The position numbers and the translations under genes were made by a program. The notes beneath the pieces were generated by a model. The model was given only the letters and a program-made list of their open reading frames with translations, searched no databases and was not told the DNA's origin. From Anolis carolinensis (Eukaryota), in NCBI RefSeq assembly GCF_035594765.1, contig NC_085843.1:122737971-122801970 (forward strand): a stretch of 64,000 nt of DNA, written 5' to 3'. The number at the start of each line of letters is the position of its first letter. Within the stretch, counting starts at the first letter, position 1. Below are positions 17,558-18,256 of the stretch, one piece after another.

Positions 17558-18256
17558 TGTTGTACCCCTAGGCTGCAGAGACACCTCAAAACCACACTGG
17601 AGCCCAAACTATAAGCAATGCAAGCTGTTTATATATGTAAGCTATAGCAAATCAAAGTTCAGAGTCAACAAACAAGGTTTTAGTCCACAAGGTACGAGAT
17701 ACTTGAGAATCTTGAAGCAAGGATCCATGAAAACCAAATGCAAGAATAAACTTCAAACAAGGTACTCAAAATTAGTCCAAGGAACAGGATCAAATACTGG
17801 AACAAAGAACAGGATCTTTAACTGGTGCAAGAGATTCAAACTGCAAGGCTTTCAGGGACATGACTTGATCATCCAAAATCCCCAGGAGCAACTGTCTGCT
17901 TCTTCACAAAAACCCCCTTTCTTGTCTGTGTTGACATATTGCTTTCTTTCTGTCAACCTCAATACACTTATCACAACTGGAATGCCCATCTGCCAAGGGA
18001 TAACATGACCCTGACTCTCCCAAGGAATGTGGTTCAAGCTGCCTGCTTGAAACCATTGTATGCCAGCTCCCAGAATCCTCAGGAACAGCAGCCTCATCTA
18101 ACTCTGGCTATACAGAATCATTTACCTCTGGCTGCATGGGAATCCTAGGCCCCAACCCAGATTCACCTGACAGGTCAGGTTGCAGGTACAATCACAGACT
18201 GAACAGACCCAACCTTAGGATCACCTGACAGCTCAGGTGTGGGCTGGGATACAACA
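17558..18256 (-). mobile_element. Solo LTR (Gypsy/BEL-type), family A
   Basis: Termini tgttgta...tacaaca; 5-bp TSD ggaac (17553-57) / ggagc (18257-61). Architecture resembles the LTRs at 29631 and 42388. Confidence 0.8.

What the first reader, a model, noticed from the sequence alone, without database searches (positions are those of the whole stretch)
17884..17963. Hidden third copy of the RRSxRL module in LTR A, probably eroded by CpG decay
The minus strand reads att gag gtt gac aga aag aaa gca ata tgt caa cac aga caa gaa agg ggg ttt ttg TGA aga agc aga CAG ttg = IEVDRKKAICQHRQERGFL*RSRQLL. Restoring CGA and CGG (typical CpG transitions) gives DRK..R..L-RRSRRLL, with the same 16-residue D-to-RRS spacing and the same basic residue at position 10 as in LTRs B and C. 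The ORF track does not show this.
Basis: partly seen in the sequence, partly recalled or inferred. Interest (0 to 1): 0.7.

Follow-up and report, generated by a model that had tools for sequence, protein, structure and literature searches.

The report
Retrotransposon integrase tail hidden in LTR
The stretch is a broken leftover, in a lone lizard retrotransposon end-repeat, of the sequence that in full-length relatives encodes the last part of the element's integrase, a tail whose short motif resembles the nucleosome-gripping motif of HMGN proteins and likely helps tether the element to chromatin.

Summary
The sequence reads as reported, and the module is real. LTR A (17558-18256, minus) is a solo LTR of a Ty3/Gypsy chromovirus family; 13 of 45 genomic copies keep the frame open from LTR base 2 through the motif. 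The module is not a separate LTR gene: in full-length LTR-C elements Pol (PR-RT-RH-IN-chromodomain, no env) runs into the 3' LTR in this frame and ends just after the motif (11 of 11), and an A-related element shows the same junction. The tail shows dN/dS 0.06-0.53 between families. CpG decay explains the Q codon (10 intact, 31 transition products of 46) but probably not the stop (44 of 51 copies have a CpG-free sense codon). The window copy is dead: a frameshift, two stops and a ~217-bp deletion. Many sister families end in RRSARIAA, and a wall-lizard element has RRSARLKA, close to the HMGN/Dot5 acidic-patch motif; binding is untested and a bipartite nuclear-localisation signal is a serious rival. 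Pol extension into the LTR is known from plant chromoviruses; this motif was not found in my paper searches.

The parts
17558..18256 (-). LTR A: solo LTR of a Ty3/Gypsy chromovirus family, 699 bp, 7-bp terminal inverted repeats
   Evidence: 1880 first-look candidates in the genome, 40 scored, 85-91% identity over the 3' part; most other copies about 860-970 bp
18257..18261 (-). 5' copy of the 5-bp target-site duplication (one mismatch to the 3' copy)
   Evidence: 23 of 29 complete family copies have 4 or 5 of 5 flank matches
17553..17557 (-). 3' copy of the target-site duplication
17887..18255 (-). Decayed coding segment for the integrase C-terminal tail (frame from LTR base 2; 136-137 codons in three open copies)
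   Evidence: junction with chromodomain in A-related element L140
17886..17963 (-). The reported module: D-basic-basic ... 13 residues ... RRS-type motif, broken
18181..18181 (-). Approximate place of a one-base frameshift in the window copy
   Evidence: 16 of 16 pairwise comparisons
18108..18110 (-). In-frame stop in the tail frame
17904..17906 (-). In-frame stop at the first motif position; probably not CpG decay
17892..17894 (-). Motif position 5, a decayed CpG site
17887..17891 (-). Junction of an internal deletion (median 217 bp) with 5-bp microhomology; removes the end of the tail and the segment complementary to the primer-binding site
   Evidence: gap >150 bp against 35 of 38 copies; that segment present in 23 of 38 copies, absent here
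29631..30535 (-). LTR B, solo LTR inserted in a LINE-like repeat; open 90-codon tail 30534-30265 ending RRSVRLAE
   Evidence: open through the motif in 14 of 26 copies located among 29 loci
42388..43326 (-). LTR C, solo LTR of a young family with full-length copies; open 92-codon tail 43325-43050 with RRSLRIAA
   Evidence: open in 27 of 29 LTRs

Best explanation
The module is a dead remnant, in a solo LTR, of sequence that in the related full-length chromoviruses encodes the C-terminal tail of Pol/integrase, and the tail's RRSxR[LI] motif likely acts as an HMGN-type grip on the nucleosome beside the chromodomain. Shown: Pol crosses the polypurine tract into the 3' LTR in the base-2 frame (family C directly; family A through a 78-80% identical relative), the tail diverges under purifying selection, and the window copy is broken four ways. 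Inferred: reverse transcription copies the 3' U3 to both ends, so each LTR and each solo LTR left by LTR-LTR recombination carries a promoterless, probably untranslated copy of the tail, which then decays neutrally, fastest at methylated CpG. Predicted, untested: in the pre-integration complex the tail's arginines would dock on the H2A-H2B acidic patch while the chromodomain (three aromatic cage positions present) would read a methyl-lysine, holding integrase on chromatin; the conserved serine would allow phosphorylation to release it, as proposed for HMGN.
For: Family C full-length copies: two LTRs 5.41 kb apart, gag plus a 1256-aa pol with RT, RNase H, integrase, SH3 and Chromo domains and no room for env; open from chromodomain through motif in 11 of 11 3' LTRs. 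A-related elements: L104/L105 (77% to LTR A) are followed by a primer-binding site and decayed gag-pol; L140 (78-80%) has chromodomain, purine tract and LTR in one frame with one stop in the linker; L141 and L145 bridge the A and B tail types. dN/dS 0.06-0.53 in 62 of 66 pairs among 12 C-like tails (4 near-identical pairs not printed); A versus A-related copies differ least at codon position 2 and most at position 3 in 12 of 12 non-independent pairs. RRSARIAA in 13 of 30 chromodomain-flanking loci; a Podarcis Pol has RRSARLKA at the end of an otherwise dissimilar acidic tail (P0008). HMGN consensus RRSARLSA and Dsup bind the acidic patch by cryo-EM (PMC12487698, passages); yeast Dot5 RRSARIAT needs R6, R7, R10 to bind nucleosomes (PMC13347269, passages).
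Against: No family-A element with an intact Pol-LTR junction was found (10 matches, none with Pol upstream); the link rests on relatives. Only 3 of 121 chromodomain proteins with 41-260-residue tails carry RRSxR[LIV] (0.23 expected); tails from Rhineura, Vipera and Crotalus records are acidic with basic ends but lack the exact motif, and fish elements end in a different RxxSP[ED][YF] motif, so it is not needed by the clade as a whole. Family A has a basic residue at motif position 4 and a longer tail, less like HMGN. The dN/dS set was picked by the motif (11 of 13 loci passed) and aligned by protein, which biases it downward. A five-residue motif can arise by convergence for another use.
Confidence: 0.55

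Rival explanations
1. Same origin (integrase tail), but the basic module is a bipartite nuclear-localisation signal: two basic residues, a 12-13-residue linker, then three or four basic residues in five.
For: The spacing is fixed across A, B and C and matches the recalled bipartite pattern closely; C-terminal import signals are known for Ty1 integrase (titles in the reference list of PMC3605345) and were suggested for beet chromoviruses (same paper, passage).
Against: An import signal does not need the conserved S, the small or hydrophobic residue and the L/I-A that recur in RRSARIAA, RRSLRIAA, RRSVRLAE and RRSARLKA; linker is at the long edge of the recalled pattern. The two roles are not exclusive.
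Confidence: 0.25
2. Same origin, but the tail is a non-specific basic DNA/RNA-binding or phosphorylation-controlled segment with no defined chromatin partner.
For: Tail is low-complexity, no Pfam match; motif absent from most non-lizard relatives.
Against: Exact motif retention across families whose LTRs share no detectable DNA similarity in this region and in a distant lizard.
Confidence: 0.12
3. An independent small gene inside the LTR, translated from its own start.
For: B and C have an ATG at LTR base 5; two database gene models end in a C-type tail (P0004, P0127).
Against: That codon is an internal residue of Pol; family A has no ATG there; the frame lies upstream of the likely transcript start in the LTR (primer-complementary site at LTR position 417 in C); solo copies decay (32 of 45 A copies broken).
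Confidence: 0.05
4. Chance resemblance, or conservation of a DNA element (enhancer) rather than of a peptide.
For: A versus C tail similarity is not significant on its own.
Against: Frame continuity with Pol, codon-position bias and dN/dS below 1.
Confidence: 0.03

Closest known systems
Vertebrate V-clade chromoviruses (Amn-ichi/-ni/-san, Sushi-ichi) of Ty3/Gypsy
   Same: gag + PR-RT-RH-IN-chromodomain, no env, TG...CA LTRs, primer site complementary to the element's own LTR; closest named proteins are Anolis carolinensis Gypsy Pol records at 96-97% over integrase. Clade names from PMC2774666 and PMC6317226 (passages).
   Different: The passages seen do not mention an LTR-encoded tail. The paper describing the anole element (Piskurek et al., Gene 441:111) is not held, so it may already note the overlap. 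Identity with Amn-ichi itself was not tested.
Plant centromeric retrotransposons (CRM group A, CR motif); beet Beetle and Bingo elements
   Same: [quoted passage not shown]
   Different: In CRM group A the CR motif stands in place of a chromodomain; here a chromodomain is kept and the tail is added behind it. Copies lie on many contigs at scattered positions; centromere bias not tested.
HMGN nucleosome-binding motif (RRSARLSA), Dsup (RRSSRLTS), Dot5 (RRSARIAT)
   Same: RRSxR[LI] core with arginines at 1, 2 and 5; RRSARIAA differs from the tested Dot5 motif at one of eight positions.
   Different: Sits at the end of a retroelement integrase; no homology beyond the motif; binding untested; family A is the least similar version.

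Membership tests
Ty3/Gypsy chromovirus (vertebrate V-clade type) | LTR with TG...CA ends and 4-6 bp target-site duplication | tested here: met
Ty3/Gypsy chromovirus (vertebrate V-clade type) | Pol order PR-RT-RH-IN with C-terminal chromodomain | tested here: met
   Family C directly; for family A only through 77-80% identical relatives L136 and L140
Ty3/Gypsy chromovirus (vertebrate V-clade type) | Self-priming: primer site complementary to the element's own LTR | tested here: met
   Family C 10-nt complement at LTR position 417; complement of the L104/L105 primer site in 23 of 38 A copies; the 7-nt-or-longer test inside L104 itself printed no hit
Ty3/Gypsy chromovirus (vertebrate V-clade type) | RT phylogeny within the V-clade / identity with Amn-ichi | not tested
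   No reference V-clade sequences were at hand; nearest named hits are lizard, amphibian and fish Gypsy Pol records
Endogenous retrovirus (Retroviridae) | env gene between pol and 3' LTR; tRNA primer-binding site | tested here: not met
   Pol runs into the LTR; primer site is self-complementary
Plant CRM group A | [quoted passage not shown] | tested here: met
   11 of 11 family-C 3' LTRs
Plant CRM group A | CR motif in place of a chromodomain | tested here: not met
   Chromo PF00385 present, E 6e-08
HMGN-like acidic-patch motif | RRSxR[LI] core with arginines at positions 1, 2, 5 | tested here: met
   B, C and C-like families and Podarcis P0008; 7 of 41 A copies; not the window copy of A
HMGN-like acidic-patch motif | Binds nucleosomes through the H2A-H2B acidic patch | not testable with these tools
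   Needs a binding assay

The most novel reading that the evidence does not exclude
Lizard chromoviruses carry a second chromatin tether behind the chromodomain: an HMGN-type acidic-patch motif encoded inside the LTR, kept across many families and in lizards as distant as anoles and wall lizards. Because it sits in U3, thousands of solo LTRs have seeded the genome with ready-made nucleosome-binding peptide sequence that host genes can capture as last exons.
Probability: 0.4. Interest if true: 0.65.

Novelty: new variant of a known kind. Interest (0 to 1): 0.42.

Why it matters
The flagged copy itself is an ordinary decayed solo LTR. What it points to is less ordinary: how vertebrate chromoviruses choose and hold their chromatin target is open, and a short, selected, LTR-encoded tail nearly identical to a tested acidic-patch motif gives a direct peptide-level test. 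It would add retrotransposon integrases to the 'untapped' set of HMGN-motif proteins that PMC12487698 anticipates, parallel the plant CR-motif arrangement, and explain why LTRs of these families look like small genes and end up in gene models.

Tried and rejected
Pattern search for a purine tract before an LTR-A start: 10 matches, 8 loci examined, none with Pol upstream. L136, L137 and L194 are internally deleted or rearranged and gave no intact family-A junction. Structure prediction of the window's LTR-C tail (35 residues) with H2A and H2B from this genome: no answer, score 0.02 against a mark of 0.34, controls not folded; not used for or against binding. Protein search with one open natural family-A tail against longer proteins: no hit among 487 candidates. 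Pfam: no match for the B or C tails or the plus-strand 255-codon frame. Earlier findings of the scan: none. Paper searches for the motif in retroelement integrases: 0 papers, 1 review listed and not read; anole chromovirus searches gave 2 papers each. Rejected: endogenous retrovirus (no env), independent LTR gene, CpG origin of the stop as the default reading.

Full report
Observation. Window 17963->17886 on the minus strand reads IEVDRKKAICQHRQERGFL*RSRQLL, as reported. C has S rather than D sixteen residues before the motif; position 10 is basic in all three.

What LTR A is. Searching the own genome gave 1880 first-look candidates, 40 scored. Pairwise comparison fixes the element at 18256->17558, 699 bp, with 7-bp inverted ends and a 5-bp target-site duplication with one mismatch. 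Other copies are mostly 860-970 bp: the window copy has lost a median 217 bp at 17891-17887, directly behind the motif, including the segment complementary to the primer-binding site. Its nearest sampled copy is 91% identical and its end branch is 0.055 changes per site, so it is an old insertion; I did not convert this to years.

Test of the CpG idea. Sixty-two other copies were examined (best matches to the window copy, so not a random sample; two duplicates removed beforehand); 52 aligned well enough. At 17894-17892, 10 of 46 keep a CpG codon and 31 carry the transition product of one or the other strand: CpG decay is confirmed. At the stop, 44 of 51 carry a sense codon without CpG, 5 are CpG-type (one of them a stop) and 2 are other. 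Four of the five CpG-type copies entered a tree of 39 rows (14 copies left out as incomplete or too long) and form a supported clade (99/93); the window copy lies outside it in an unresolved neighbouring group and shares none of 7 scorable diagnostic columns, 5 more falling in its deletion. An AU test does not reject joining it to that clade (p 0.41). I put CpG origin of the stop at about one in four. In the window copy, however, the frame is also broken by one extra base near 18181 and a stop at 18110-18108.

What the module is. LTR C belongs to a young family with LTR pairs 5.41 kb apart. Natural full-length copies hold gag and a 1256-residue pol frame with protease, RT, RNase H, integrase, SH3 and chromodomain matches and nothing between pol and the LTR. 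Pol crosses the purine tract, enters the 3' LTR with base 2 as first codon position, and ends 92 residues later just past RRSLRIAA; this holds in 11 of 11 3' LTRs among 29 loci. The primer site is complementary to the LTR itself, the self-priming arrangement described for Tf1/Sushi chromoviruses (PMC6317226, passages). B and C tails are homologous (0 of 1000 shuffles as high). For family A the link is indirect: L104 and L105 (77% identical) are followed by a primer site and decayed gag-pol, and L140 (78-80%) shows chromodomain, purine tract and LTR in one frame with one linker stop; L141 and L145 have tails that mix A-like and B-like features. No intact family-A junction was found. The closest named proteins are Anolis carolinensis Gypsy Pol records, so the host is likely an anole lizard and the elements V-clade chromoviruses (PMC2774666, passages).

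Selection and spread. Among 12 C-like tails dN/dS is 0.06-0.53 in the 62 of 66 pairs with enough divergence (motif-selected, protein-aligned, non-independent). Between six open A copies and two A-related copies, differences are fewest at codon position 2 and most at position 3 in all 12 pairs, a modest effect. Of 30 loci fetched by chromodomain DNA, 13 end in RRSARIAA, 7 in related strings and 10 show none within the segment scanned. Among 251 of 257 fetched proteins with an alignable chromodomain, 121 have tails of 41-260 residues and 3 carry RRSxR[LIV] (0.23 expected): two Anolis and one Podarcis, the latter RRSARLKA after an unrelated acidic tail. Against generality: Rhineura, Vipera and Crotalus records have acidic tails with basic ends but no exact motif, many records are chimeric gene models, and fish elements have short tails ending RxxSP[ED][YF].

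Mechanism. Shown: the tail is the end of Pol in family C and A-related elements, selected as protein, and dead in the window copy. From established retroelement biology (recalled): U3 of the 3' LTR is copied to both ends at reverse transcription, and LTR-LTR recombination leaves solo LTRs, which explains three frame-from-base-2 'modules' in one window. Inferred and untested: the motif grips the H2A-H2B acidic patch. HMGN (RRSARLSA) and Dsup do so by cryo-EM, and serine phosphorylation is modelled to block it (PMC12487698, passages); yeast Dot5 uses RRSARIAT and needs its three arginines (PMC13347269, passages). The main rival is a bipartite import signal, which the fixed spacing also fits (pattern recalled). 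Confidence that the module is the integrase tail: about 0.9; that it works as an acidic-patch anchor: about 0.55 overall.

Comparison and novelty. Pol running into the 3' LTR with a targeting segment is known in plant CRM group A and some beet chromoviruses (PMC3059260, PMC3605345, passages), where the CR motif replaces the chromodomain. A chromodomain plus an LTR-encoded HMGN-type motif was not found in my searches (none; one review, listing only; two papers each, passages of PMC2774666 and PMC6317226 read; PMC3601003 passages on Sushi LTRs have no occurrence of 'ORF' or 'reading frame'). The library lacks most subscription papers, the primary anole paper is not held, and no supplements were read, so prior mention cannot be excluded. 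Verdict: the flagged copy is ordinary decay; the system behind it is a new variant of a known kind, interest 0.42.

Noticed in passing
window 49032 to about 47590, minus strand: A fourth LTR-like repeat (1252 first-look candidates) whose frame from base 2 stays open for about 170-200 codons in 2 of the 4 copies whose start was located, with two acidic ETFEGF repeats (resembling the recalled TFIIS-N-domain interaction motif FxGF); the window copy is frameshifted. No gag or pol found beside it in the one locus checked. B and C tails have a similar EExLGF string.
   Followed up: partly
window 17241-18008, plus strand: A 255-codon stop-free run across the 3' half of LTR A, its deletion junction and unique flank; longer than all 1000 dinucleotide shuffles (max 174), but other copies also have long antisense runs (59-157 codons) and there is no Pfam match. 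Probably compositional; not explained.
   Followed up: partly
proteins P0054, P0055, P0062, P0066, P0091 and others: Fish-type chromovirus Pol proteins have an RGRGRPRRR stretch (AT-hook-like, recalled) after the chromodomain and a short tail ending RxxSP[ED][YF] (14 of the first 257 proteins), apparently also past the purine tract: a second, different conserved tail motif. DNA junctions not checked.
   Followed up: no
proteins P0004 and P0127: Two Anolis gene models, one named cation-transporting ATPase, end in a complete family-C-type LTR tail: annotation chimeras or real capture of the tail as a last exon.
   Followed up: no
window 22474-23069 and 23495-24090: A 596-nt, 100% complementary inverted repeat with a 425-nt spacer, overlapping a 283-codon plus-strand frame at 23029-23880; may be a young DNA transposon.
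   Followed up: no
L137 (G000:C6:52994500-53002500): An A-related element whose 5' LTR region contains a family-C-type tail in the opposite orientation: nested insertion or rearrangement.
   Followed up: no
window 1476-2210: Tandem array of about 85-bp units resembling part of the LINE-like repeat found at 15900-16821 and 62259-62721.
   Followed up: no
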